Below, in pieces: positions 9,097 through 60,096 of a DNA stretch of 60,096 nt. The DNA comes from an uncultured Clostridia bacterium. GTDB taxonomy: Bacteria > Bacillota > Clostridia > UMGS1883. A model generated the notes under the pieces. That model was not told where the DNA came from, made no database searches, and saw nothing but the letters and a program-made list of their open reading frames with translations. Within the stretch, counting starts at the first letter, position 1, and the number at the start of each line of letters is the position of its first letter. Where the stretch lies: assembly GCA_947630975.1 (NCBI GenBank), contig CANRJP010000004.1, forward strand, positions 1-60,096, in the 5' to 3' direction. The position numbers were made by a program, and so were the translations under genes.

Positions 9097-9522
9097 TTAG
9101 CAAATGTCTTCATGGGGAGCTACAGCCATAACAGTTTTCACGTTTCCGTCCTTGTCCATAAATTTCTCCTCAACGCTGTTGTCTGCGTAACGGTACGTAC
9201 CGATTTGTTTCCATTGCCTTGATCTCTCCGCTTCTTGTTCCTTTTCCTGCGCCTGTCTTTGCAGCTTTTTAAGGCGAACAAATTCATTTCCCGTAAGGCT
9301 TTTGCGCGGTTCAGACAGTGCATAATCGCTGATGTAGAAAGATGTAAACTCACGGTGCCATCCTGCGTTGAGCCAATGGTGTGTAACTTTTTCCGCATAG
9401 GCAATTAATTCTGCGTCATTTTCAATCGGCCCAAGATGACGTGCTTTATAAACAAATTCATCACGGCTATATGTGGGTTGACCGTTAACATACCCATAAA
9501 CATTGGATTCAAATTTCATCAT
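9097..9522 (-). CDS. Phage hypothetical protein
   Basis: 141-aa ORF with RBS. Confidence 0.75.
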   Translation of the reverse strand: MMKFESNVYGYVNGQPTYSRDEFVYKARHLGPIENDAELIAYAEKVTHHWLNAGWHREFTSFYISDYALSEPRKSLTGNEFVRLKKLQRQAQEKEQEAERSRQWKQIGTYRYADNSVEEKFMDKDGNVKTVMAVAPHEDIC

Positions 9523-9563
9523 TGCTTTTCCTTTCTCCCCGAAGGGTCGTTACTCTGTGTTCG

Positions 9564-9920
9564 TTAATTCATTACCCGCAATACAATGACGTTTTCCAAT
9601 TTCATAGGGTCAAAATCCAGTTCATGAATTTGGTTAGGATAGTCGCGGGCAATATCCGTAATCACGTCGCCCCAGTCATACAAATCGGCGCTACTGTTGT
9701 ATGCGTTAATCAGTTTTTTGTATTCCGCTTCGCAATCGGGATCAGTGTCCCAGCCATAAGCCCTGTCCTTGACATACGCCTTGACTGCGAACAGGTCAGC
9801 ACCGGAAAGACAGTCCCTACCGTTAAACAGTGACGGGACTACCCGGTACTGCTCGCCGTTGGTGCAAATTATAAAGTCGCCAAAAATCGCTGTGTCTGTG
9901 GTAAAATAGTATTTAGTCAT
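9564..9920 (-). CDS. Phage hypothetical protein (acidic)
   Basis: 118-aa ORF with RBS, downstream of the ribozyme. Confidence 0.75.
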   Translation of the reverse strand: MTKYYFTTDTAIFGDFIICTNGEQYRVVPSLFNGRDCLSGADLFAVKAYVKDRAYGWDTDPDCEAEYKKLINAYNSSADLYDWGDVITDIARDYPNQIHELDFDPMKLENVIVLRVMN

Positions 9921-9950
9921 GGTAAACGTCCTTTCTTTTTTTACGTTATA

Positions 9951-10015
9951 TGCCCTGCCATCGTCAGATCAGGGGAGGGCACCCTCTGATGACGGGCCGT
10001 GCGGCCCGTTTCGGC
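9951..10015 (-). ncRNA. Type II hammerhead ribozyme with loop I/3'-tail pseudoknot
   Basis: GCC-GAAA-CGGGCC(GCAC)GGCCCG-UC/AUCAG...CUGAU-CUGACGA-UGGC; loop UGCCCU can pair with the downstream AGGGCA. Confidence 0.88.
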
Positions 10016-10363
10016 TTATACGGATGGTTCAAGTTCAACGTCAACTTCAGGTTCAAGTTCGTCATCCACCGCAAGATGCGCGGGAATAACCAGAGCAGTT
10101 TCCGCTGTTTCGTCCGTTCCTTGAAGACGCCTGTCATGATAATTCTTAAATGCTCTCGCTGCCAGTTTTGAAAAATCCTCTATCGTGTCACGATAAAGCT
10201 GTCCTGCCGGGATTTCTTCAGCCAAGCACTGACGGAATAAATCGGGGTCTTGCGGTTTGCGGCGTTCAATTAAATCTTCCAACATTGCGTTATAAATTGC
10301 GCCGCTTGCTTCCTGGTTAATGTCATCCACCTTTTTTAAAATGTTGATGCTGATGTTTGCCAT
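10016..10363 (-). CDS. Acidic hypothetical protein, first gene of the accessory operon
   Basis: AGGAGG RBS before MANISINIL. Confidence 0.75.
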   Translation of the reverse strand: MANISINILKKVDDINQEASGAIYNAMLEDLIERRKPQDPDLFRQCLAEEIPAGQLYRDTIEDFSKLAARAFKNYHDRRLQGTDETAETALVIPAHLAVDDELEPEVDVELEPSV

Positions 10364-10390
10364 AATTGATAGCCTCCTGTTTTTTTGTTT

Positions 10391-10471
10391 AGTGAAATAT
10401 TTTTCACTGTGGTTACAGTATAGCACAGTTTATTTTACTTGTCAAGTGCTTTTAGTAAAAAACTTTTCACT
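10391..10471 (-). promoter_or_regulatory. sigmaA promoter overlapped by three putative repressor operators
   Basis: TTGACA(10445-10440)-17-TATACT(10422-10417); AGTGAA-N6-TTCACT at 10391-10408, variants at 10422-10439 and 10454-10471. Confidence 0.8.
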
Positions 10472-10500
10472 TTTTGTGAATTTTTTGTGAACGCCCAATA

Positions 10501-10746
10501 GTTACACTTTTTACGCGCGCGTATAGACATATATGAATTAGGCAGATTAGGCAGTTGTGTATCCCTCTAATCTCTCTAATTCATAGGTATATTAGGAATT
10601 TATGTAACATTGTAGACAAGAGCATTTTTTCTGTGCAATATCCGCATTTATAGCGTCTACATAATAGGTAACTTTTTTGTAACACCGTAACAGAAAAATG
10701 TTACACGTTACATATTTGTAACGCCGATGTAACGCCATTTGTAACA
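10501..10746. repeat. Second copy of the iteron-rich putative origin
   Basis: Direct repeat of 43535-43779; about 10 GTAAC/GTTAC pentamers. Confidence 0.85.
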
Positions 10747-10761
10747 TAAATAATGCACGAA

Positions 10762-10794
10762 AAAAGCCGACAGACGTTAATTCTGTCGGCTTTT
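10762..10794 (-). terminator. Terminator at the end of the late/lysis operon
   Basis: aaaagccgacaga-N7-tctgtcggctttt. Confidence 0.85.
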
Positions 10795-10802
10795 GGCTGT
10801 GT

Positions 10803-11060
10803 TTATTTCCTATTACTTATTTGGGCCACATACTGGCCATAGCTTAAACCGCATTTGCGGGCTTCAGCATTTATTTCTCCCAGTGATTGAGATTGCAAGG
10901 GCGGTTCAGTTGCAAATTCGTATGGAGCGTTCAATCCCTGACGGTGTAATGTTTTCCGCCTCTGAGCGCAGTAATTACCACATATTTTGCGTCTATTACT
11001 GTTAGCAGGTATTTTTCGCCCACAAACAATACAAAATTTAATCTTACCGTCACCCGCCAT
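10803..11060 (-). CDS. Small zinc-finger phage protein
   Basis: CIVCG...ICGNYC...GLSYGQYVA. Confidence 0.75.
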   Translation of the reverse strand: MAGDGKIKFCIVCGRKIPANSNRRKICGNYCAQRRKTLHRQGLNAPYEFATEPPLQSQSLGEINAEARKCGLSYGQYVAQISNRK

Positions 11061-11063
11061 AAC

Positions 11064-12011
11064 TCATTCTCCTTTGATGTATTTGATGGCTTTTCTTACC
11101 ATCGCCGCTACTTCAGCACGTGTAGCCGCCTCATCTGGCTTGAATAGACCGGTATTCTGACCGTCAACGGATGTGCCGCTAACGATGCCCATATTGGCAA
11201 GATCAGTAATATCCTGTTCTGCCCAATGCCCAGAAATGTCACTGAACATATTCTTTTTTGCCCCCTTTACCAATCCAGATAAGCAAGCATAATAACGTGT
11301 GCCGTTTTGAACAAATCGCGCCCAAGCGCCATCTGTTTTATCAATATTAAGTACGGTTCCTATAGGAGCCTGTTCATAAATACTGTAACTCGTTCCGGCA
11401 CCGTTGCGAATATTAAGGTAGCCGTCCGGATCAGTCACGGTGTACGCCTCAGTAGGCTGCTGGGGCGTGAGAAACGTCGGTTTATGAATGACGAAATAGT
11501 ATTTGACCTCAGACTTAAACACGCTCCAGGAGGCGCAGAGCCGGTTTGCTGCGGTGCTGGCAGGGTCGTTTATTAGAACATTATCGTTGCTGTCTATGCC
11601 GTACCACAATATAAAATGACCGCTCGACGTCCAACGCCCTTTACCCATACAGGCGATAACATAGTCGCCGCCTTTAACCGCATTATAAGCAGTTAAGTGC
11701 GCCGCTGCACTTGCATTTTTATATAGGCTTGAATAATTAAGCTGGTCACATATCAGCCCAAACCGTTTAAAATACGGTGCGAAGAAAGCGTAATAGGTTC
11801 CTTGTCCGGTGGCCTTATAGCCGTTTGCCATTGCCCATTGACACGCGGTAAGTGGATTTTCATCTGATTTGGCCCATTCCGCAACTACCATTGACGCGGC
11901 TGTAGGACCACAACCGGACCCTCCAATGGTGGTGTTTTCCGCTTGTGTAGCGTACTTCGTGTTTTTCCATCGAGCGTCTGTCTGAAGATAGGATACGGGT
12001 TTAAAGCTCAT
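11064..12011 (-). CDS. Endolysin: C39-like cysteine peptidase, SH3b and SLH domains
   Basis: YLQTDARW...SGCGPT...GHFI...INDP; LNIRNGAGT; FSDISGHWA...ATRAEVA. Confidence 0.88.
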   Translation of the reverse strand: MSFKPVSYLQTDARWKNTKYATQAENTTIGGSGCGPTAASMVVAEWAKSDENPLTACQWAMANGYKATGQGTYYAFFAPYFKRFGLICDQLNYSSLYKNASAAAHLTAYNAVKGGDYVIACMGKGRWTSSGHFILWYGIDSNDNVLINDPASTAANRLCASWSVFKSEVKYYFVIHKPTFLTPQQPTEAYTVTDPDGYLNIRNGAGTSYSIYEQAPIGTVLNIDKTDGAWARFVQNGTRYYACLSGLVKGAKKNMFSDISGHWAEQDITDLANMGIVSGTSVDGQNTGLFKPDEAATRAEVAAMVRKAIKYIKGE

Positions 12012-12523: not shown

Positions 12524-12904
12524 TTATTCTACGCTGCTATCGCTGTGGCCGTCCGCGTCATCGTTGTGACTGTCGGTCTTATCAGCAGGGCTGTCGGCTT
12601 CGTCGGTGTCGTCAGCAGGAACGGCATCAGCGTGTTCAAGCTCGCCATCTACGGGCGTTTCGGCGGCTGTGATTTCTTCAAGCTCCGCCTCTAACGTGTT
12701 AATACTTGCCCGCCAAGCGCGACGAGATTTTACCAGCTCGCCGAAGCCCTCCAAGAACGCCTTAAAACAGGCCACAAGGCCGGTAATATTGGTACAGTCG
12801 GTTAGGTTCTCAACCAATTTCATGAGCTGATAATCGGAATTGCGTAAAAGGGATTTAAGGGCGTTAATTTCACCCTCAATGTAGTTCTTTCGGTTTTCAT
12901 TCAT
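12524..12904 (-). CDS. Hypothetical protein, possibly tail-fibre associated
   Basis: EINALKSLLRNSDYQLMK...RRAWRASINTLE; acidic tail. Confidence 0.7.
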   Translation of the reverse strand: MNENRKNYIEGEINALKSLLRNSDYQLMKLVENLTDCTNITGLVACFKAFLEGFGELVKSRRAWRASINTLEAELEEITAAETPVDGELEHADAVPADDTDEADSPADKTDSHNDDADGHSDSSVE

Positions 12905-14082
12905 AATAAACGCTCCTTATTTGTTATTTTTTTCCACGGTTTAGTACCGAACAATGAAACAAAAAGCTGATCCAAACTGTATACAGAGCGATAGGCGTTT
13001 CTTTGCATAAGTGCCCCGCGTGATGACATATAGGATTGCGTAATTTGGTCTAAAGTCATAACACCATTATCTAAAAAGTGTTTAAACTTTTTCAATTTGC
13101 GCCGTGTACGTACAATGCTGTCATGGTCGGCCTTTTGTATTACCTTGCCGGTAGTGGTTAGGAAATATTTAGTTTTTAAAAAGGTGAAGCCCCGACTGAG
13201 TTTGACAATCTGGGTCTTTTTGGTATTAGGAATAATGCCTACTTTTGCGTATTCGTCATAAAGTATTTGTTGAATACGCTGAAGAACGGATTTATCCTGA
13301 TAGATGATATAGGCGTCGTCCATGTAACGGCCATAATACCGTAGCCGTAAACCGTCTTTGATAAGGTGGTCAATGCGGTTAGGATATGCCACGGCATAAA
13401 TTTGACTGTCCTCCGGGCCAATATATAGCCCCATACCGTGTTCATGCTCCGGTCGATACCTGTCCGGTGAAGATACAAAGGATTTACATAAAGCGTTAAG
13501 TTTTTTATCAAAAATATATCTATCAAAAATACCATACAACGGTTTATGTAAAATGTGGTCAAAGTAGCCTTTAAAGTCGATTATTAAGATATAGCCGTCA
13601 TTACTGCCTGTTTCCCTGAAATACTGATGAAGATGTGTTTTACACCGGCCAGCGGAAAAACTGACACCCTTTCCGGCCAAACTCGCACCATTATCATAAA
13701 TCAGATTACTGGATAAAATAGGTACCAGTGCATTTACGCATATTGCACGACGTATTACACGTTCCGCATAATGCAAACTATGTATATTACGTTTTTTGCC
13801 GCGTTCAATAATGTCAAAACTGTAGAAGCCTTGCCGCACATCTTTTCCTTCGTGTAGCTCTTTTGACTGCAAAACGGCGTAATGCGCAAAGTGTGCGTTA
13901 TATCTGGCGACACTTGCCTTAAAAAGGACGCCCCTTCGGGCGTCCCAATTGGCTCGACGTAAAGCCTGCGGAGAAGTCGCTCTGTCAAAATTATCAAATA
14001 AATCTAATTTGGCTCGACGTTTTTCTTCTCGCGCAGCTTTACGTCTTTGGTAACGTGCTTCATGTCGTTCCGCACTGTTCAT
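12901..14082 (-). CDS. DGR reverse transcriptase
   Basis: LIIDFKGYFDHI, GPEDSQ, YGRYMDD, GFTFL motifs; lies downstream of avd and TR. Confidence 0.95.
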   Translation of the reverse strand: MNSAERHEARYQRRKAAREEKRRAKLDLFDNFDRATSPQALRRANWDARRGVLFKASVARYNAHFAHYAVLQSKELHEGKDVRQGFYSFDIIERGKKRNIHSLHYAERVIRRAICVNALVPILSSNLIYDNGASLAGKGVSFSAGRCKTHLHQYFRETGSNDGYILIIDFKGYFDHILHKPLYGIFDRYIFDKKLNALCKSFVSSPDRYRPEHEHGMGLYIGPEDSQIYAVAYPNRIDHLIKDGLRLRYYGRYMDDAYIIYQDKSVLQRIQQILYDEYAKVGIIPNTKKTQIVKLSRGFTFLKTKYFLTTTGKVIQKADHDSIVRTRRKLKKFKHFLDNGVMTLDQITQSYMSSRGALMQRNAYRSVYSLDQLFVSLFGTKPWKKITNKERLL

Positions 14083-14378
14083 TTCATAATCATACCTCGC
14101 AGAGTGTTATTGTAGGGGGCGCGTTGTATGCTCCTTTGCGACAATGACCATGAAACCTGGTACTTTACTGGATTCCGTCAGTTATATATCGCCCATCCCA
14201 GGCCATGCAAGAAGCGTCCGGTCAGTCGCGTCAAGGTATTTATTTACCCGCACAAGAGCACGGGAGGGTCATTTTCTCCTTCCGTTAAAGGAATTGTACA
14301 TAAGAAAACCAGGGGCATTGATTTCCACTCAAAAAGTGTACTCTAAGGCTTGCCCAGGAATGTATCGGAATCAGCTTT

Positions 14379-14517
14379 TACGGAATCAGACGGGCGCGCC
14401 GACCCACGTATTGGACGCCGTATTGTTGTTCGCATTGCCGTTGTTGTTGACATTCGTCCAATTCGTAGTGTTGTCAGCGCGAGGACTGAGCAGCCACCAG
14501 TTGTTACGGCTACCGGA
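14379..14517 (-). repeat. DGR template repeat (TR)
   Basis: 139 bp with 13 AAY codons; differs from VR1 at 17 positions, all TR adenines. Confidence 0.97.
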
Positions 14518-14548
14518 ACCCCGATAAAGCAGAAAATAACCCGTGCGT

Positions 14549-15001
14549 TTATGTTCTCTGAAGAAGTTTAGTTCGTTTCTTCCAGCCTTTTAACAGAATT
14601 TCTTCCCGGCTGAGAAGTTCACTTATACGGTTTATGTGATATTCCAGTCGGCGTCTCTCAGCGTTGTTTTCGTCTTTGTGCAATGTTTCCCACCAAAGGT
14701 CTTCCATCAGCTCTTGAAGGCAATCGAAAAGTTTTTCACACATAATGATACAACCGTTTTGCAGCTCATGACGCTGCGCCAGCATTTCAACGGTGTACGG
14801 ATATATGGCGTTGGCCTCAACTATGTCATCAAGAAGCTGACGGACCTTTTTCAAAATGGGAACGGTGTATAACGCTCGCCATTTTTTCGGGACGTTTTTC
14901 TCGTTACGCAAAAACAGTGACATTTCGTGCCGGAGGTCCACCGCATTGCGGTAAAACTCCATTTCGGATATGCCTCGCTGCCGCTGTAATACGTTACTCA
15001 T
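14549..15001 (-). CDS. avd: DGR accessory variability determinant (Avd-like)
   Basis: 150-aa helical protein between target and TR; IVEANAIYP...LLKGWKK pattern. Confidence 0.85.
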   Translation of the reverse strand: MSNVLQRQRGISEMEFYRNAVDLRHEMSLFLRNEKNVPKKWRALYTVPILKKVRQLLDDIVEANAIYPYTVEMLAQRHELQNGCIIMCEKLFDCLQELMEDLWWETLHKDENNAERRRLEYHINRISELLSREEILLKGWKKRTKLLQRT

Positions 15002-15017
15002 ACACTTTTTTCCTCAA

Positions 15018-15038
15018 CCGCGCCCACAAGGGGCGCGG
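15018..15038. promoter_or_regulatory. DGR hairpin downstream of VR1
   Basis: CCGCGCCC-acaag-GGGCGCGG (8-bp GC stem, 5-nt loop), 12 nt after the target stop codon. Confidence 0.85.
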
Positions 15039-15050
15039 ATACAAAAAGAT

Positions 15051-15947
15051 TTATGCGATACGGAAGCAGACGGGCGCGCCGACCCACGTATAGGACGCCG
15101 TAGTGGCGTACGCACGGCCGCCGCTGCCGACATTCGTCCAATACGTAGTGTAGTCAGCGCGAGGACTGAGCAGCCACCAGCTGTTACGGCCACCGGAGCG
15201 CAATTTAACACGGTTGTAAATGTTATGCGCAAATATAGGGTACTGTACCGCGGAGAGTGTCGCGTAAAGGGTATTGGCCCATACGCCCGAACCGTATACC
15301 TCAAATTCATTAGGAAGCCAGAGCTTACCGATAGACGCCCAGGCACCGGCATTACTTTCCGTGAGAAGACCGGAAGCGGAATACCGCTTTTCAAGATACA
15401 GCTTTTTCTCAGCGATAACACTTTTCAGGTTATCAGGCAGGAAGTAATACACGCCATCCTTTGTGTAGTCCACCTCTTTCATCTCAGGAGCAAGCGTCTT
15501 TGCGTTGGGAACAGAACCGGACAAACTGTTGAGCCAATGATACAAGTCGGACGCAAGCCAGGGATGCTCCTGCGTGGAAACGCCGTTGTTATAGTCAACA
15601 GGATTAGCAGGGTGGAGGGTGGGCCATAGCTCCCGCGAGATGAAATCAATATGGTGGCCGACAGCGGTATCGGCAAAATTACGATATGTGTCAATACCTG
15701 CGACTTCCATTTTCAGCGATACGCTGTTAGTAGTTTTGAGGGGAATATAGTCCTTTACGTGAATACCGATGTAATTTCCGGCCTTTATACGCGCCTGTAT
15801 CCATTTCCACGGATTGCCGCTATATGTAGAACCGTTTATCTCATCGGAAAATTTTACCGTCAAGTCTTCGCCCTCATAATACCGATCTCCATCAAAGCCC
15901 AGCAAAGGCTGGGCTTCGCTGTTATTGATATTAATTCTGTCAATCAT
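15051..15947 (-). CDS. DGR target protein (C-type-lectin-fold/DUF6273-like), probable receptor-binding protein
   Basis: KLWLPNEFEVYG...WWLLSP...GAPVCFRI; VR1 at the 3' end; located at the end of the tail module. Confidence 0.88.
   Translation of the reverse strand: MIDRININNSEAQPLLGFDGDRYYEGEDLTVKFSDEINGSTYSGNPWKWIQARIKAGNYIGIHVKDYIPLKTTNSVSLKMEVAGIDTYRNFADTAVGHHIDFISRELWPTLHPANPVDYNNGVSTQEHPWLASDLYHWLNSLSGSVPNAKTLAPEMKEVDYTKDGVYYFLPDNLKSVIAEKKLYLEKRYSASGLLTESNAGAWASIGKLWLPNEFEVYGSGVWANTLYATLSAVQYPIFAHNIYNRVKLRSGGRNSWWLLSPRADYTTYWTNVGSGGRAYATTASYTWVGAPVCFRIA
15059..15197 (-). repeat. DGR variable repeat VR1
   Basis: Colinear with TR; substitutions only at TR adenines. Confidence 0.97.
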
Positions 15948-43534: not shown

Positions 43535-43779
43535 GTTACACTTTTTACGCGCGCGTATAGACGTGTACGAATTAGGCGGATTAGGCGATTATATATTCCT
43601 CTAATCCCTCTAATTCGTAGGTATATTAGAAATTTATGTAACATTGTAACATAATCGTAGTTTTAGCGATAATACGGCGGTTTTTGGCGTTACAAACTAT
43701 GTAACTTTTTTGTAACTTTGTAACAGAAAAATGTTACACGTTACATATTTGTAACGCCAATGTAACGCCATTTGTAACA
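43535..43779. repeat. Iteron-rich putative replication origin
   Basis: About 12 GTAAC/GTTAC pentamers, AT-rich, immediately downstream of the primase-helicase gene. Confidence 0.75.
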
Positions 43780-53567: not shown

Positions 53568-54083
53568 TTATATGTCAGCACCCAGCGCCCGTAAATCGGC
53601 TGCAACGGATGGATATTGCGCCGGATTAAGCTGCATGATGGTAGTTACACCGTATTTTTGCAATACAGCAATAACCTGCGTCATTTTACCCATATCTATC
53701 AATGCCGCCCCGGCACGAGAAATAGCATCCACGGTTATCTGCTCAATCTGTGTAGCCACCGGTGCCGTTGTCTGCGTGACAACCGGTGCCGTAGGAGTTT
53801 CCGTCTGAGCGGGAGCTGATACTGCTTCCTCCCAGGGGACGCCCGCTTGAGCAGCGACGAATGCTGCGGGAGCTTCCATTTGAGTAGGTGCCGTTTGCAC
53901 AGGGGCCAAAGCCGGGCCATCATTGGGTTCGCTTGATGTAGGCGAGGCCGTAGGAACGGACTGCGTAACGCAATTCTGCTTTTGAACTTGGATAATTGCT
54001 TCAGCAGACTTTGTAACTGCCTCAGTTAACTTCAAAATCGCCTTAGTAAAATCTGCGGCTTCTATAATATTGATCTCCAACAT
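53568..54083 (-). CDS. Phage protein with Ala/Pro/Thr-rich linker
   Basis: Usual position upstream of the DUF2800-like gene. Confidence 0.75.
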   Translation of the reverse strand: MLEINIIEAADFTKAILKLTEAVTKSAEAIIQVQKQNCVTQSVPTASPTSSEPNDGPALAPVQTAPTQMEAPAAFVAAQAGVPWEEAVSAPAQTETPTAPVVTQTTAPVATQIEQITVDAISRAGAALIDMGKMTQVIAVLQKYGVTTIMQLNPAQYPSVAADLRALGADI

Positions 54084-54276
54084 TTTCTTTCTGCCTCCTA
54101 AATATTTTTAAATCCTTTTTCTTTGCTGTTGCCCGCTGTTGTTCCCATTGCTCAAATTTTCGCACGTTTTCGGGATTACTGTAGTAATCCTTAACGGCTT
54201 GACAAAAAGTTTGCGCAAGGTTATGGGCGTCAATAGCGGAAATTTCACATACCTTGATTTGCCCCTGATTGGTCAT
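54043..54276 (-). CDS. Phage hypothetical protein
   Basis: YYSNPENVRKFEQW motif. Confidence 0.65.
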   Translation of the reverse strand: MTNQGQIKVCEISAIDAHNLAQTFCQAVKDYYSNPENVRKFEQWEQQRATAKKKDLKIFRRQKENVGDQYYRSRRFY

Positions 54277-54505
54277 TAGACGCCACCTCGATTTCCGCCT
54301 CTAATTCGGCGAGAGCGTTAATTATGCGGGCCTGGGTTTTTTGCTTTGCTGCCTCACTTTCAAATTGCTTGCCCCCGTTTAACACGGTCGATAAATAGGT
54401 GTGAGAGTAGCCGCATTGTTCGGCCAGCATTTGGTTTGTAATGCGGTATCGATGCATTCTACCAACAACGTCAGCCGTCCATTCTTCGTTTTGTACAATG
54501 CCCAT
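54245..54505 (-). CDS. Cro-like HTH regulator
   Basis: ITNQMLAEQCGYSHTYLSTVLNG; divergent from the repressor. Confidence 0.82.
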   Translation of the reverse strand: MGIVQNEEWTADVVGRMHRYRITNQMLAEQCGYSHTYLSTVLNGGKQFESEAAKQKTQARIINALAELEAEIEVASNDQSGANQGM

Positions 54506-54547
54506 AGAACGCCTCCTTTCTTCTCAGTGAAATTTTTTTACAAAACC

Positions 54548-54732
54548 AGTTGAATTTTTTTCACTTTTGTGGTACAATGAAATTGCCATATCTCACTTAA
54601 CCACTTACAGCAACTATTTATTTGTGCGCGCAGTCAAATAATATTTGCTGATAGTGAAATATACTTCACTGTACTTATAGTGTAGCAAAAAATATTTCAC
54701 TTGTCAAGGGGTTTGGTGAAAAAAATTTAACT
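54548..54732. promoter_or_regulatory. Lysis-lysogeny switch: opposing promoters and operators
   Basis: + strand TTGAAT(54550)-17-TACAAT; - strand TTGACA(54707-54702)-17-TACACT; AGTGAA-N6-TTCACT at 54653-54670, variants at 54548, 54684 and 54715. Confidence 0.8.
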
Positions 54733-54751
54733 TTTTTCGGAGGTGTCATTC

Positions 54752-55144
54752 ATGACGTTTTTTGCTCGCTATTCAAGAATTTGTGAACAACGTGGTATTA
54801 AGCCCTGCTCACAAAAAGCGGCGGATATGCTTGGCGTCACAAAGACCACAATATCCGTTTGGAATCGTACTAACTCTGCACCCAAAGGAGAAACGGTGGC
54901 AAAAGTTGCAAATGCGTTAAGCGTTTCAACCGATTATCTTTTGGGCCGAACAGATGACCCGACTGACTATACTGTCGCAAAACAAAAAAGCGTTCCACTA
55001 TCACAAGACAGTGGGAACGCCCAAAATCAGGCTATGATACAAATGTATAATAAGTTAGATGAAATAGATCAAGCGAAAGTTGACGGAATCGTTCAGGGCC
55101 TACTTCTGAACGATAAATACAAGATAAGTCAAAACCTTGCATAA
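54752..55144 (+). CDS. CI-like XRE repressor
   Basis: HTH (AADMLGVTKTTISVW) and LSVSTDYLLGRTD. Confidence 0.88.
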   Translation: MTFFARYSRICEQRGIKPCSQKAADMLGVTKTTISVWNRTNSAPKGETVAKVANALSVSTDYLLGRTDDPTDYTVAKQKSVPLSQDSGNAQNQAMIQMYNKLDEIDQAKVDGIVQGLLLNDKYKISQNLA

Positions 55145-55247
55145 TTCGTAAAGAGAAAAACATAATTTTTGCTGACTTTAAAAACTTATTTAATCGTCAT
55201 TAATTGTGTAGCGCCATTACACGTTATTTAGGGGAGATTAATGTACA

Positions 55248-57011
55248 ATGAAAAAAGAGACAAAAGGTGAATTAGCCGTTGTATATGCACGGTATTCATA
55301 TCACGCACAAGGAGAACAGTCCATAGAAGGGCAACTCGCGGCTGCTAAAAAATACGCAGAGCTAAAAGGGTATAGAATTATACATGAGTATATCGACCGC
55401 GCTGTTTCCGGTCGTACTGATAACAGAGATGCGTTTCAAAAAATGCTATCGGATTGCGCAAAGAAACAGTTTCAGGTTATTATTGTGTGGAAAGTAGATA
55501 GGTTTGGACGCAATCGAGAGGAGATTACATTTAATAAATATATCGCCAAGAAAAATAATGTTCGTATTGAATATGTGGCTGAGAATTTACCTGATTCAGC
55601 GGAAAGTGTTATACTGGAAAGCGTATTAGAGGGAATGGCCGAATATTACAGCCTACAGCTCGCGCAAAACGTCAGTCGCGGTATGCTTGAAAGTGCCAAA
55701 AAGCACCAAGTCACCGGTATGGTTCCGTTTGGATATCGTAAATCCAAAGATTTAAAATACGAAATTGATCCAGAATTTGCGCCCACAGTAAAAATTATAT
55801 TTGATATGTATGCCGCGGGTTCAACTATGACCGAAATCATAAATTATTTGAATGCACACAGTTATAAAACACGTGCAGGAACGCCCTTTAAGAAAAATAT
55901 GCTGCCGCGTATGTTAAATAATGAAAAATACATTGGGACGTACATTTACAAAGACTTAATTCGAGAAGAAAATGCCATTCCCGCAATTATTGATAGAGAG
56001 ACTTTTGCTAAGGTACAGGAGATGTTAAAAATTAATCGTCGAATGCCTTCACATAGATGGAGCTACACGGATTTTTTGTTGACCGGCAAACTTTTTTGTG
56101 GGCATTGTGGAAGTGCTATGACCGGTGAAAGTGGTACAAGTAAAACCGGTGGGAAATATAGCTATTACGTTTGCCACCAGCACCGTAAAGACGGGACGAT
56201 CTGTAAGAAAAAGGCAGTACGTCAGGATATGATTGAAAAAATAGTATTAGATGAAATACAAAAGGTGCTAAACGATGATGAAATTTTTAATTTTATCGTT
56301 GAACAAACATGGCGTTTTTACACTCAACAAGATGAAGATCAGGTACAATTAACTATGCTGCAAAAACAAATCAAAGATGTTGAAAACAGTATTGCTAATT
56401 TGGTAAAATCCATTGAGGCTGGACTATTTACGTCAACAATAAAAGACCGTATAAATGAATTGGAGGCAGAAAAAACGGCAATTAACGCGGAAATCGCTGC
56501 CTATAAATTAGAGCGGCGCTATAAATTAACAAAAAACAATATTATTCATTTTTTAGATCAAATGAAAAAGTTAAATATAAAAAATCGAGATTGTCAGCGC
56601 CGATTAGTAGAAGTGTTCGTTAATTCAATTTTTGTATATGACGATCATTTAACAATGACATTTAACTACGGCGGCGCTGATAGGACTATAACTTTCTCCG
56701 AAATCAGCGACGTAGAGGCATCTTCTGAGTTCGTTTCCTGTACGCAAGGGTTCACCAGATCAAGAAAGCCCGTAATCATCGAGAAATCCGATGGTTACGG
56801 GCTTTTTATTGTTGCAGAAATGCGAATTGGAGGGTTAGAATTTGTACGTGAATGTACGTGTTTTTTGGGTGTCAAATCGGTGTCAGGAAACCTATGGGTG
56901 TCAAAACGGGTGTCAATTTTGGAAACGGTGTCGATGGTGGAGCCTATAAAATTTAGCATAAGATTTAGCGACAACGTCGCGCCTTTAGTGACCCGCAGGA
57001 TGGGCAAATAA
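55248..57011 (+). CDS. Large serine recombinase (integrase); reads across the right att
   Basis: YARYS catalytic Ser, DRFGR, recombinase domain, CGHCG zinc ribbon, coiled coil. Confidence 0.95.
   Translation: MKKETKGELAVVYARYSYHAQGEQSIEGQLAAAKKYAELKGYRIIHEYIDRAVSGRTDNRDAFQKMLSDCAKKQFQVIIVWKVDRFGRNREEITFNKYIAKKNNVRIEYVAENLPDSAESVILESVLEGMAEYYSLQLAQNVSRGMLESAKKHQVTGMVPFGYRKSKDLKYEIDPEFAPTVKIIFDMYAAGSTMTEIINYLNAHSYKTRAGTPFKKNMLPRMLNNEKYIGTYIYKDLIREENAIPAIIDRETFAKVQEMLKINRRMPSHRWSYTDFLLTGKLFCGHCGSAMTGESGTSKTGGKYSYYVCHQHRKDGTICKKKAVRQDMIEKIVLDEIQKVLNDDEIFNFIVEQTWRFYTQQDEDQVQLTMLQKQIKDVENSIANLVKSIEAGLFTSTIKDRINELEAEKTAINAEIAAYKLERRYKLTKNNIIHFLDQMKKLNIKNRDCQRRLVEVFVNSIFVYDDHLTMTFNYGGADRTITFSEISDVEASSEFVSCTQGFTRSRKPVIIEKSDGYGLFIVAEMRIGGLEFVRECTCFLGVKSVSGNLWVSKRVSILETVSMVEPIKFSIRFSDNVAPLVTRRMGK
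56729..56757. other. Right attachment junction
   Basis: GTTCGT...GCAAGGGT-TCACCA; shares TCACCA with the tRNA-Lys end. Confidence 0.75.
56765..56805 (+). terminator. Terminator that followed tRNA-Lys before prophage insertion
   Basis: aaagcccgtaatcatcg-N7-cgatggttacgggcttt plus T-tract. Confidence 0.8.
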
Positions 57012-58125
57012 ATTCATGTCATGCCGGTCGAGCCGGGAAAGAATTTCGGTCTCGTCCTCGGCGCAGTGGGTGTATATGTCGAGGGTTGTTTCAACGCGGG
57101 AGTGGCCGAGTATACGCTGAGTATTTTTTAAATCGATACCGCTGTAAAACATATCCGTGGCGCAGGTGTGGCGGAGTATGTGGGCGCTGATGGTGGACGT
57201 GTCAACGTTACTGAGGTCGTTCTTTTCGGCGGACGCGGCTATGGCCTTGGATATTCCCCTCCAGAGCTTTGTGTAGCTGCTGGCGGTGGTGTAGCCGCCG
57301 TTTGTCATGGGGAAAAGCAGCGGCGTTTCAAGCGATTGGACATAAGGGGCGAGAACCTCATACAGCGGGAGCCTGATTGGGACATCTCTGAAACCGGCGT
57401 CGGTTTTAGGACTGTTTTTAAGCTCGGTGTGAGTGTTCTTTATGACAAGGTTTTTGTTGACCGTGATAATCCGCCTTTCGAGATCGACGTCCTTGGCGGT
57501 AAGGGCCAAGATTTCACCACGGCGGAGGCCCGCATACAGGCCCAGATACACAAACGCCCGCTGCTTGGGAGTAAAATCGGCCTTTTCGATGGCGGTACGC
57601 TCGTCGGGAGTGAGAGCCCGTTTTTCTTTGTGCTCTTTTTTTGGAAGTTTAAGGCCGCGTGTGGGGTTCTTCAAGAGCATATCGTTGTTTTATGGCGGCC
57701 TCGAACATTTGATCAAGGGTGCATTTCAGCAGCTCCAAGGTGCGGGTGAGACCGGCGGCGGCCTTTTGGTTAATGAGCTGTTGAAGGTGCCCGAGCTTTA
57801 TGTCCTTCAAGGGAATTCCGGCAATGTCGGAGGAGGCTATGTGCTTTTCAACAATGGTCTCGTAGGTAAAATGTGTGTTGTATGAGACGTTGTTCTTGTA
57901 AGTTTTGAGCCATTCCCTTGCCCAGTGGGCCAGAGGCTGGCTGGCGCTGTCCAGCATTACGCCCTGGGCGAGCTGGGCCTTGAGAGCGGCCTCCTTTTCC
58001 TTGAGCTCGCGCTCGGTGGCGGCGTAAAGGGTCTTGTACTCGGACTTGCCCTCGATATTTTTCCCGATGTTGACCTTGACCTGGTATCTTCCGTCGGAGC
58101 GGTGGGTGTAGCGGGACTTGGGCAT
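56985..58125 (-). pseudogene. Tyrosine integrase, frameshifted near 57688-57691
   Basis: RSDGRYQ N-terminus; GLRRGE, HILRHT, LGH...IYTH; one extra A in ATAAAACAAC. Confidence 0.85.
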
Positions 58126-58254
58126 GAATAGGCCTCCTTTCTGTGTAAGGCACCAATACAGGGGCGCCATTTTTATTTTGCGAAGCTATTTACAAATGAG
58201 GTGAAATATGTTATAATACGTCTGTCGGCTCACCGACCGAAGGGAGGTGAGATA

Positions 58255-58341
58255 ATGAGTTACATAATCGACTTCATCATTTCCGTTATGGCGGGTATAG
58301 TTACATACTACATCTGCAAGTGGCTTGACGGAAAGAAGTAG
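58255..58341 (+). CDS. Type I toxin peptide (Fst/holin-like, 28 aa), not in the ORF track
   Basis: MSYIIDFIISVMAGIVTYYICKWLDGKK; GGGAGG RBS; TTTACA-17-TATAAT promoter (58189-58217). Confidence 0.82.
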   Translation: MSYIIDFIISVMAGIVTYYICKWLDGKK

Positions 58342-58354
58342 CCGACAAAGCCCA

Positions 58355-58468
58355 AAACAAGAAAGGCTCGGAGCTGCAACTCCGAGCCTTTCACTTTTTG
58401 GCGGCGAGACAAGTCACACAACCATACTTCATCACTTATAGTGTATCATAAACTGCCAGAATTGTCAA
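58355..58468 (-). ncRNA. Putative convergent antitoxin RNA with shared terminator
   Basis: TTGACA(58468-58463)-17-TACACT; hairpin gaaaggctcggag-N6-ctccgagcctttc (58361-58392). Confidence 0.65.
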
Positions 58469-58791
58469 TAGTGTCAATATTAAATTTTTGAGAAATTTCA
58501 ATCCCTATCCTCCAATTACGCAACCAAAATCCCCAAACGGGGATTTTGAGCAGAGTAATCCCATTTGGGGATAAATACACAAACATCGCAGAGGAGGGCG
58601 TTTTTTTAATTAAATTGCGAGCCCATTTTTCAAGGGGTCCCCGAAAACAACGAAGTTGTTTTTGGGGAAGAGGAGACGCAGCGAGGTAAGCCACGTTCCG
58701 ATTTTTAAAATCGGAACAAGCGATACCGAGCTTGCGGCGACGACAGCGAGCCTTTAGTGACCCGCAGCGACGGACAAGTAATATCAAGCTG

Positions 58792-60000
58792 TTACCGGCG
58801 GCCTTCGTGGCAGAGGGAACAGGGCTGGCGGCCATCTTTAAGAGCATCTTGTAAGGTTACAACGTGCTTTGACGATGAATTTTCCAACGTGGGGCAATTC
58901 GCATAATGATACTTTGTTCCTTCACGAGTTACCCATACTCGACGCATGGGATCGTGTTCAACTTTATATAGGCTGTCATTGCTGGACTGTCCGCTGAAAA
59001 GGTAGCTGTTTGATCGGGTGGTTGGGGTTACAATCTGTGGATTTGAACTTTGTACAGAAGAGGGAGAGCTTACAATATGGTTATTTACATTTGAACTCAA
59101 TTCTTTGTTTTCGGCAATAAGCTGTGAGTTTTTATCGTTCAGAGAATCAATTTCATCAAGCAATCCTTCATTTTCATCAAGAAGCTGATCGATCTCGTCT
59201 TGTAACTCTTGATTTTCTTCTGTTAATTGCTTAAGGTCGTCGTCGTTCTTTTTTTGCAAAGCTATCAACTGATCATGAGCTGATGAGCGCACCTCAACAA
59301 AGTCGCTTCGTACCCAGCCGGTTTTGTTGTGGCACGATACTTTGTACCACAGGTAAGTACTGTTTTCCTTGTCGGAATCCTTTTTGCACTCGCCAAGAAA
59401 TGTCATGGACGAATAATCGTCGGTGTTGAGTTCTGTCACGGGATTTCCGCTTGAAAGGCTCGGGCCGGGATAAACAAGGACTTTTGAATCCAGCGCGGCA
59501 ATACGGGTGAGTTTTTCGTCCTTTTTGAATGGCACCTCACTTAGAGGATAAAACTTTATAAAGTATAGTGCAATAGCCAAAACTGTGACGGCGAAAGCCA
59601 TGATGAGCGCAACGGCTCTTTTTGATAACGTTGAACGGGTTTTACTGTATGAGTCTGTATCGCGGGGGTATTGTGTTTGTCGCTGTTTCGTTGTGTCGTC
59701 GGCTTCGGTAATGAGAGTTGGCAGGTTAAGCGCCGGAGGCTTGGAGGCAGGGATTGGTTTTGACTGAGGAGCGGGAACGGTTGTTTTCTTCGGCACGGCA
59801 ACGTCCCTCGCCGGGTTTTCTCCCTGTTTGACCTTGCCGTATTTGGCTATGAGCCAGTCGATCATCTCATCCACGGTGAGCTTCTCCGGGTCGTAGCCTT
59901 CCTTTGCCATGTCGGCCTTGACGGAATAACGGACGCCCTCGTCAGGAATAGGAATGTCGGAGTTATTTGGTTTTGATTCTTCAGGCTTCATTTGTTTCAA
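58792..60000 (-). CDS. Membrane-anchored protein: SH3-like domain, coiled coil, C-terminal Ada-like metal-binding motif
   Basis: TM segment; WYKV...GWVRSDFV; VWVTREGTKYH..C...PCSLC. Confidence 0.72.
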   Translation of the reverse strand: MKQMKPEESKPNNSDIPIPDEGVRYSVKADMAKEGYDPEKLTVDEMIDWLIAKYGKVKQGENPARDVAVPKKTTVPAPQSKPIPASKPPALNLPTLITEADDTTKQRQTQYPRDTDSYSKTRSTLSKRAVALIMAFAVTVLAIALYFIKFYPLSEVPFKKDEKLTRIAALDSKVLVYPGPSLSSGNPVTELNTDDYSSMTFLGECKKDSDKENSTYLWYKVSCHNKTGWVRSDFVEVRSSAHDQLIALQKKNDDDLKQLTEENQELQDEIDQLLDENEGLLDEIDSLNDKNSQLIAENKELSSNVNNHIVSSPSSVQSSNPQIVTPTTRSNSYLFSGQSSNDSLYKVEHDPMRRVWVTREGTKYHYANCPTLENSSSKHVVTLQDALKDGRQPCSLCHEGRR

Positions 60001-60096
60001 CTCCTCTGTATGAAAGATATTGGATCAATGTCAATAAAGTGGACAGAAAAATTAGAAAAAATTAATGAACAAAGAATAAGCGTTCACGCTCATTGG

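What the first reader, a model, noticed from the sequence alone, without database searches (positions are those of the whole stretch)
9951..10015. Hammerhead ribozyme inside the accessory operon
Seen: directly after the stop codon of the first gene, the minus strand has every hammerhead core element in type II order: stem II GCC/GGC, GAAA, stem III, GUC cleavage triplet, stem I AUCAG/CUGAU and CUGACGA. A 6-bp pseudoknot (UGCCCU/AGGGCA) is also possible. Predicted cleavage is between 9991 and 9990, 70 nt before the next ATG. Inference: it separates gene 1 from the rest of the transcript and gives the downstream mRNA a 5'-OH end.
Basis: partly seen in the sequence, partly recalled or inferred. 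Interest (0 to 1): 0.7.

Follow-up and report, generated by a model that had tools for sequence, protein, structure and literature searches.

The report
Type II hammerhead between prophage genes
A complete type II hammerhead motif (an RNA predicted to cut itself) sits flush against the stop codon of the first gene of a likely early operon in a gut-bacterium prophage and likely splits that gene's message from the rest; this is a solid new example of an arrangement known since 2011.

Summary
Minus strand 10016-9949 passes Rfam Hammerhead_II (41.4 bits, cut-off 37) and is the genome's only match. The predicted cut at 9991/9990, 70 nt before the ATG, is right.

The motif belongs to a large phage subfamily. 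The loop I–tail pseudoknot covaries, and an upstream ORF ends within −1..+2 nt of stem II in 79 of 103 viral members (control 1%). The operon's promoter copies the cro promoter and its operators, so it is probably an early lytic unit.

Best reading: constitutive cleavage into a gene-1 mRNA and a downstream mRNA, each with a structured end. Cleavage is untested and no RNA data were available. Against an essential role: gene-2 homologs lack a ribozyme, and contigs from two other samples carry a weakening U4C change.

Type II hammerheads between prophage genes are published (Perreault 2011), and this scan noted the stop-codon habit before on other DNA. Useful addition: active phage Mushu carries an unannotated copy in the same layout.

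The parts
9951..10015 (-). Type II hammerhead ribozyme with U9a insertion and loop I-3' tail pseudoknot
   Evidence: Rfam RF02276 41.4 bits, cut-off 37; coordinates
10016..10018 (-). UAA stop codon of gene 1, flush with stem II
   Evidence: family habit
10013..10015 (-). Stem II 5' strand GCC (pairs with GGC 9959-9957)
   Evidence: register supported by compensatory pairs in relatives
9992..10012 (-). GAAA core strand and stem III (7 bp, loop GCAC); would end the upstream product
   Evidence: pair probabilities 0.83-1.0
9990..9991 (-). Predicted cleavage site after GUC (C17 = 9991)
   Evidence: hammerhead consensus; not measured
9968..9990 (-). Stem I (5 bp, bulged A, 3 bp) with loop UGCCCU 9981-9976; would start the downstream product
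9960..9967 (-). CUGACGA core strand plus extra U9a (9960); U4 = 9966
   Evidence: U4C variant in contigs of runs X7 and X8
9951..9956 (-). Pseudoknot tail AGGGCA
   Evidence: 6 of 6 Watson-Crick pairs with loop I, duplex -9.1 kcal/mol; family covariation
9929..9936 (-). Shine-Dalgarno-like AGAAAGGA for gene 2, outside the ribozyme
   Evidence: sequence
10016..10363 (-). Gene 1, 115-aa acidic protein of unknown function
   Evidence: no Pfam or PHROG hit; one homolog at 55% identity
9564..9920 (-). Gene 2, 118-aa acidic protein of unknown function
   Evidence: no Pfam or PHROG hit; homologs in L491 and L494
10417..10445 (-). Sigma-70-type promoter (TTGACA, 17 nt, TG-extended TATACT); copy of the cro-side promoter
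   Evidence: (D9, 74% to 54652-54737)
10391..10471 (.). Two operator-like palindromes (10391-10408, 10454-10471) of the type found four times in the cI-cro gap

Best explanation
The element is a type II hammerhead motif with a bulged extra U and a loop I-tail pseudoknot that likely cleaves itself during transcription of a probably repressor-controlled early operon, and so would split the transcript into a gene-1 mRNA and a downstream polycistronic mRNA. Shown: motif, register, position, promoter and operator copies, family layout. Inferred steps: (1) on induction the promoter at 10445-10417 fires, start about 10410; (2) the RNA folds stems III, I and II plus the 6-bp pseudoknot and cuts after C9991; (3) the roughly 420-nt upstream piece ends in the GC-rich stem III hairpin with a 2',3'-cyclic phosphate, like a terminator end; (4) the downstream piece starts with a 5'-OH at A9990 inside stem I or the pseudoknot helix, 70 nt before its own Shine-Dalgarno-led ATG, so it looks like a fresh transcript with a structured 5' end; (5) decay and translation of the two pieces are thereby uncoupled. 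It acts as a generic punctuation module rather than a regulator of one gene.
For: Rfam hit above cut-off. The search pattern required no pairing, yet 104 of 105 distinct viral hits and 82 of 118 genome hits form stems I and III. Stem II covaries around the bulged U: 59 of 61 and 25 of 25 paired when the 3' strand changes. Pseudoknot of 5 bp or more in 73 of 103 against permuted mean 37.6, maximum 47. Core is conserved: a complete scan for U4 substitutions found 16 records, 15 structured and all U4C (6 distinct cores), against more than 122 for the intact core. Layout: ORF end at -1..+2 in 79 of 103 (45 protein clusters) against 35 of 3605 control windows; Shine-Dalgarno plus start within 120 nt in 78 of 99, median 55 nt from the cut. 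Downstream genes are varied (47 clusters), short (median 78 aa), and 60 of 65 representatives tested have no PHROG family. In 87 loci of 5 kb or more, all descriptor hits of a locus lay on one strand. A gene-2 homolog in the same genome (76 of 118 identical) stands directly behind a promoter with a leader of about 38 nt, the place the cut would give gene 2 here. Tandem prophage hammerheads, including from Clostridium scindens, cleaved in vitro (PMC3088659 section 6). An A-to-U change at the same extra position raised cleavage 3-4-fold in a viroid hammerhead (PMC3705267, passage). 5' hairpins stabilise downstream mRNA in B. subtilis (PMC3997798 section 7).
Against: No cleavage or transcript data. 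Nested folding ranks the hammerhead fold 4.4 kcal/mol above the MFE and gives stem II probability 0.0, so the fold depends on the pseudoknot, which the program cannot model; the isolated downstream product is predicted to prefer the loop-tail helix to stem I. Contigs in two other samples of one study carry U4C in this very ribozyme (depth 4.6 and 2.5), a change described as considerably lowering activity (PMC3088659 section 11). Both gene-2 homologs found lack a ribozyme. RNase J1 can attack 5'-OH ends, as after glmS cleavage, so the direction of the effect is not settled. An antisense gene fragment at 7734-8074 makes a single transcript beyond 8081 uncertain.
Confidence: 0.6

Rival explanations
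1. Translation-gated cleavage. A ribosome ending on the UAA would cover stem II and the GAAA core, so cleavage would occur mainly when gene 1 is not being translated, coupling release of the downstream mRNA to the translation state of gene 1.
For: The stop codon is flush here and in 79 of 103, 48 of 79, 72 of 119 and 32 of 67 members of four sets, against about 1% of control windows and 3 of 35 unstructured chance hits. A twister and a pistol ribozyme in the same loci are also flush (+2 and -1). Stem II has only 3 bp.
Against: Most genes of this operon abut or overlap, so flush placement may be plain compaction. The base before stem II is A in 101 of 103, which makes UAA or UAG cheap to acquire. 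Only 1 of 3 further type II copies checked was flush. Termination is brief, and the RNA may fold before the first ribosome arrives (own knowledge, not tested).
Confidence: 0.15
2. Cleavage lowers downstream expression. The 5'-OH product is degraded from its new end by RNase J1, as for glmS mRNA, so gene 1 is made in excess over genes 2 onward.
For: RNase J1 degrades the 5'-OH glmS product (PMC3997798 section 7). The 5' hairpin of the product is not secure in nested folding.
Against: The new 5' end lies in stem I or the pseudoknot, and 5' hairpins and bound ribosomes protect mRNA in B. subtilis. 19 of 87 loci carry two or three copies, which fits segmentation better than destruction.
Confidence: 0.12
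3. The element is mainly a mobile stop-ribozyme-SD cassette that serves as a junction for gene shuffling, like the PeSL cassettes of T4-type phages; cleavage is real but nearly neutral for this operon.
For: Upstream and downstream genes vary widely around near-identical cores (171 and 207 clusters over the four sets). One contig of run X7 joins gene 1, the ribozyme and 29 nt of gene 2 to 9089, skipping genes 2 and 3 (short side only 29 nt, weak). U4C in close strains. PeSL model: PMC2839356, abstract only.
Against: Shuffling needs only sequence identity, not a conserved catalytic core, pseudoknot covariation or compensatory stem II changes. There is one copy in this genome.
Confidence: 0.1
4. 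A chance or inactive look-alike.
For: The score is only 4.4 bits above the cut-off; a competing fold is predicted; 4 of 18 consensus hammerheads tested in PMC3088659 were inactive (section 11).
Against: All core bases, three stems, a 6-bp pseudoknot and the family's layout are present.
Confidence: 0.03

Closest known systems
Type II hammerhead ribozymes of bacteria and prophages (Rfam RF02276; Perreault et al. 2011, PMC3088659; sections 6, 8, first part of 11, passages and a term search of supplements seen)
   Same: Permutation with open stem II, short stem II, loop I-3' tail pseudoknot, place between small genes of a prophage, proposed processing of polycistronic RNA.
   Different: Carries a bulged U between A9 and G10.1; a single copy rather than a cluster; the paper's main text has 0 occurrences of 'stop codon', 'ribosome' or 'translation', so the flush stop codon is not discussed there.
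CChMVd plus-strand hammerhead with an extra nucleotide between A9 and G10.1 (de la Pena and Flores 2001, seen only as summarised in PMC3705267, passage)
   Same: Same insertion position; U at that position is reported to raise cleavage 3-4-fold.
   Different: A viroid ribozyme used in rolling-circle replication, not a DNA phage operon element.
glmS ribozyme (PMC6765202 and PMC3997798, passages and section 7)
   Same: Self-cleavage upstream of a start codon in a Firmicute mRNA, leaving a 5'-OH.
   Different: Different fold, needs GlcN6P, leads to RNase J1 decay; no ligand site is evident here and the new 5' end is structured.
Twister (RF02684) and pistol (RF02679) ribozymes in the same phage operons
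   Same: Found in 2 of 20 related loci, also flush to an upstream stop and before an SD.
   Different: Unrelated folds; none in this window.
PeSL promoter-stem-loop cassettes of T4-type phages (PMC2839356, abstract only)
   Same: Small repeated cassettes between non-essential small genes.
   Different: Promoter plus terminator, no catalysis.

Membership tests
Hammerhead ribozyme, type II (RF02276) | Conserved core C3 U4 G5 A6 N7 G8 A9, G12 A13 A14 A15.1, U16.1, H17 | tested here: met
   U4C in contigs of two other samples
Hammerhead ribozyme, type II (RF02276) | Three stems around the core, stems I and III closed by loops, stem II open | tested here: met
   stem II register by covariation; stem II is not favoured by nested folding
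Hammerhead ribozyme, type II (RF02276) | Covariance model score at or above the gathering threshold | tested here: met
   41.4 against 37 bits
Hammerhead ribozyme, type II (RF02276) | Loop I-3' tail pseudoknot | tested here: met
   6 bp possible; family covariation 73 of 103 against permuted maximum 47
Hammerhead ribozyme, type II (RF02276) | A9 followed directly by pair 10.1-11.1 (no insertion) | tested here: not met
   extra U at 9960; a described, tolerated deviation; 14 of 20 such relatives still pass RF02276, so membership stands as a core variant
Hammerhead ribozyme, type II (RF02276) | Site-specific self-cleavage giving 2',3'-cyclic phosphate and 5'-OH | not testable with these tools
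   needs an in vitro assay or end mapping
Clustered prophage hammerheads flanking genes (Perreault 2011) | Two or more ribozymes in one operon | tested here: not met
   one copy in window and genome; 68 of 87 related loci also show one type II copy within about 5-6 kb
glmS-like regulated ribozyme | glmS fold and ligand dependence | tested here: not met
   no such Rfam match; ligand dependence itself not testable

The most novel reading that the evidence does not exclude
Phage ribozymes of this subfamily are ribosome-gated switches: the upstream stop codon is built against stem II so that a terminating ribosome blocks folding, and the phage releases a protected downstream mRNA only when the upstream gene is poorly translated. 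U9a (possibly faster) and U4C (slower) alleles would tune the rate between strains. Phage Mushu, an active prophage of a cultured gut commensal, carries an unannotated copy with the same layout, which makes this testable.
Probability: 0.15. Interest if true: 0.65.

Novelty: new member of a known kind. Interest (0 to 1): 0.3.

Why it matters
The role of self-cleaving ribozymes in bacterial and phage genomes is described as largely unknown (PMC6765202, passage from section 13). This locus does not answer that, but it is a clean single-ribozyme test case behind a definable promoter. The family survey adds a quantified layout (stop codon, ribozyme, SD, ATG), natural rate alleles (U9a, U4C), and an unannotated copy in phage Mushu (NC_047913.1, after the gp06 stop) that Rfam's threshold misses, where cleavage could be mapped in a cultured host.

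Tried and rejected
No RNA holder listed for 8500-11500; this says nothing about expression. No relatives of gene 1 or gene 2 in viral contigs by protein search; 2 and 1 hits in the large protein set, each including the window's own protein; 6 hits for gene 2 among cluster representatives, none informative. No Atlas result was obtained for either protein, so their folds stay open. No second ribozyme of any Rfam class in the window at E up to 1. Test of whether family members lie close behind a promoter: 22 of 49 on the same strand against 25 of 49 on the opposite strand, uninformative, so 'after the first gene' is not shown as a family rule. No att repeat found between 400-1400 and 54000-60096. 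The possible extension of stem II through UAUA/UAUA (seen in the MFE) was not tested for conservation. The idea that the ribozyme core is itself the SD does not apply here, since the SD lies 15-22 nt beyond the tail. The X7 joint skipping genes 2-3 has a 29-nt short side and is weak. Literature: searches listed no paper whose title or abstract start describes stop-codon abutment or a ribozyme in Mushu; only listings were seen for most, and subscription journals are not covered. A term search of 11 Perreault supplements held as text found neither U9a core string, but gapped alignments and figure PDFs may hide them, so the U9a subfamily may well be in their Dataset S1. Rows dropped before counts: hits with under 250 nt upstream (1 of 104, 3 of 82, 3 of 122, 1 of 68). 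In one search, 65 of 73 cluster representatives were submitted (left out: 3 from non-Clostridia records and 5 from short loci).

Full report
Observation. Rfam Hammerhead_II matches 10016-9949 at 41.4 bits against a cut-off of 37, and it is the only match in the 2.95-Mb genome. The cut falls between 9991 and 9990, 70 nt before ATG 9920. Stem I is longer than described: five pairs, a bulged A and three more pairs close a 6-nt loop that is exactly complementary to the 6-nt tail.

Setting. The window is a temperate tailed prophage: repressor and serine integrase at 54.7-57.0 kb, replication genes, terminase, head, tail, a reverse transcriptase with RT-2 RNA, holin and a cell-wall hydrolase-like protein. 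Its terminase is at most 57% identical to deposited phages. Related ribozymes in named genomes are mostly from Lachnospiraceae, Oscillospiraceae and other Clostridia. After the lysis genes and a hairpin at 10762-10794, a strong promoter at 10445-10417 leads about 20 small, mostly unknown genes running to about 1285. That promoter is a 74% copy of the cro-side promoter. It carries two of the operator-like palindromes that occur four times in the cI-cro gap; the only two perfect copies in the window are at 10391 and 54653 (8 matches in all, shuffle mean 2.3). I infer an early lytic unit under repressor control. Gene 1 is 115 aa from ATG 10363, gene 2 is 118 aa; both are acidic and unassigned.

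Family and structure. Stems I and III form in 104 of 105 distinct viral hits and 82 of 118 genome hits. A pseudoknot of 5 bp or more is possible in 73 of 103 viral members, against a mean of 37.6 and a maximum of 47 in 200 permutations of tails. When the 3' strand of stem II was forced to differ, the unconstrained 5' strand followed: 59 of 61 paired at 11.2-10.2 (U-A 42, A-U 9, G-C 8) and 25 of 25 at 11.3-10.3. So the U is a true bulge. Versions with no insertion (122 structured, truncated scan) or with A, C or G inserted (68 structured, complete scan) also exist. An extra base at this position is described for the CChMVd hammerhead, where U raised cleavage 3-4-fold (PMC3705267, passage). 14 of 20 U9a relatives pass the Rfam cut-off, so the variant is largely inside RF02276 already.

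Layout. An ORF of 40 codons or more ends within -1..+2 nt of stem II in 79 of 103 viral U9a members (45 protein clusters), 48 of 79 genome members, 72 of 119 without insertion and 32 of 67 with another inserted base. Control windows give about 1%, and unstructured chance hits 3 of 35. A Shine-Dalgarno-led start follows within 120 nt in 78 of 99, a median 55 nt from the cut. Downstream genes are short and varied, and 60 of the 65 tested have no PHROG family. A twister and a pistol ribozyme in the same loci are also flush, but only 1 of 3 further type II copies was. I measured this before reading the scan's earlier notes, several of which report the same habit on other DNA.

Mechanism. Most likely (0.6) the ribozyme cuts constitutively. 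It would leave a gene-1 mRNA of about 420 nt ending in the stem III hairpin, and a downstream mRNA starting with a 5'-OH inside stem I or the pseudoknot. Each piece would have a structured end, and decay and translation would be uncoupled. In support, a gene-2 homolog elsewhere in the same genome stands directly behind its own promoter with a leader of about 38 nt, the position that cleavage would give gene 2 here. Comparable tandem prophage hammerheads cleaved in vitro (PMC3088659 section 6). All steps after the sequence anatomy are inferred.

Results against. Nested folding puts the hammerhead fold at -27.2 against an MFE of -31.6 kcal/mol and gives stem II no weight; only the unmodelled pseudoknot (duplex -9.1) would tip it. 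Contigs from two samples of one other study carry U4C in this same ribozyme at low depth, while two runs of the likely source sample match the window. U4C is described as much slower in vitro yet viable in a viroid, and it is the only U4 change among structured viral hits (15 of 16 records, 6 distinct cores). Neither gene-2 homolog has a ribozyme. RNase J1 can degrade 5'-OH RNA (PMC3997798 section 7), so the cut could lower rather than raise downstream output. Flush placement may be compaction, since most genes here abut.

Comparison and novelty. It works like, and is a member of, the type II hammerheads of bacterial prophages (RF02276; PMC3088659), as a core-insertion variant; self-cleavage is the one defining feature not testable here. 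Processing of polycistronic phage RNA is the standing proposal and remains unproven (PMC6765202, passage). The stop-codon abutment is not mentioned in the main text of either paper (0 occurrences of 'stop codon') and I did not find it in the listings. A practical gain: Faecalibacterium phage Mushu has a U9a type II motif flush with the gp06 stop, with the same tail sequence, not annotated in RefSeq and below the Rfam cut-off. Mushu produces virions in cultured strain A2-165 (PMC5883640, passages).

Verdict. Real, well-formed, a new member of a known kind; interest 0.3. The boldest reading not excluded is ribosome-gated cleavage (probability 0.15, interest 0.65 if true).

Noticed in passing
window 7734-8074 (+) versus 15370-15030 (-): A 341-bp inverted copy (90% identical) of the last 105 codons of the DGR target gene lies inside the accessory operon, with its own, differently diversified variable repeat (81% to the template repeat, some changes not at adenines). 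Recombination between the two inverted copies would swap the target's C-terminal domain and flip about 7 kb that includes this ribozyme, the lysis genes and the reverse transcriptase: a possible DGR-plus-inversion cassette. Untested; the most curious side feature of the window.
   Followed up: partly
window 12901-15947 (-): Diversity-generating retroelement: RT 12901-14082, RT-2 RNA 14072-14303, template repeat 14379-14517, variable repeat 15059-15197 with 17 of 17 differences at template adenines, target gene 15051-15947.
   Followed up: partly
window 10501-10746 versus 43535-43779: Two direct-repeat blocks (89% and 92%) duplicate the non-coding region after the primase-helicase gene, rich in short GTAAC-type repeats; possibly a second copy of an origin-like region just upstream of the accessory promoter.
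   Followed up: no
window 1749-1770 and 8273-8294: Exact 22-nt direct repeat, 6524 bp apart, inside two unrelated ORFs in different frames; unexplained.
   Followed up: no
window 58434-58468: A third partial copy of the cro-type promoter lies upstream of a split tyrosine integrase (57649-58170 and 56985-57680), suggesting a second, decayed element beside the prophage.
   Followed up: no
L682 2204-2266 (NC_047913.1 about 2238-2300): Unannotated U9a type II hammerhead motif in phage Mushu, flush with the gp06 stop and missed at the Rfam gathering score.
   Followed up: partly
L683 298-362 (-) and 2504-2571 (+): Dulem virus 39 has type II hammerheads in both arms of a divergent small-gene region.
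   Followed up: no
window 571-1162 (+): Five tRNA genes face the end of the accessory operon; a two-way terminator-like hairpin lies at about 1248-1280.
   Followed up: no
L494 (G000:C12) and L491 (G004:C18): Gene-2 homologs followed by a Cys-rich protein and a small gene occur in other mobile elements without a ribozyme.
   Followed up: partly
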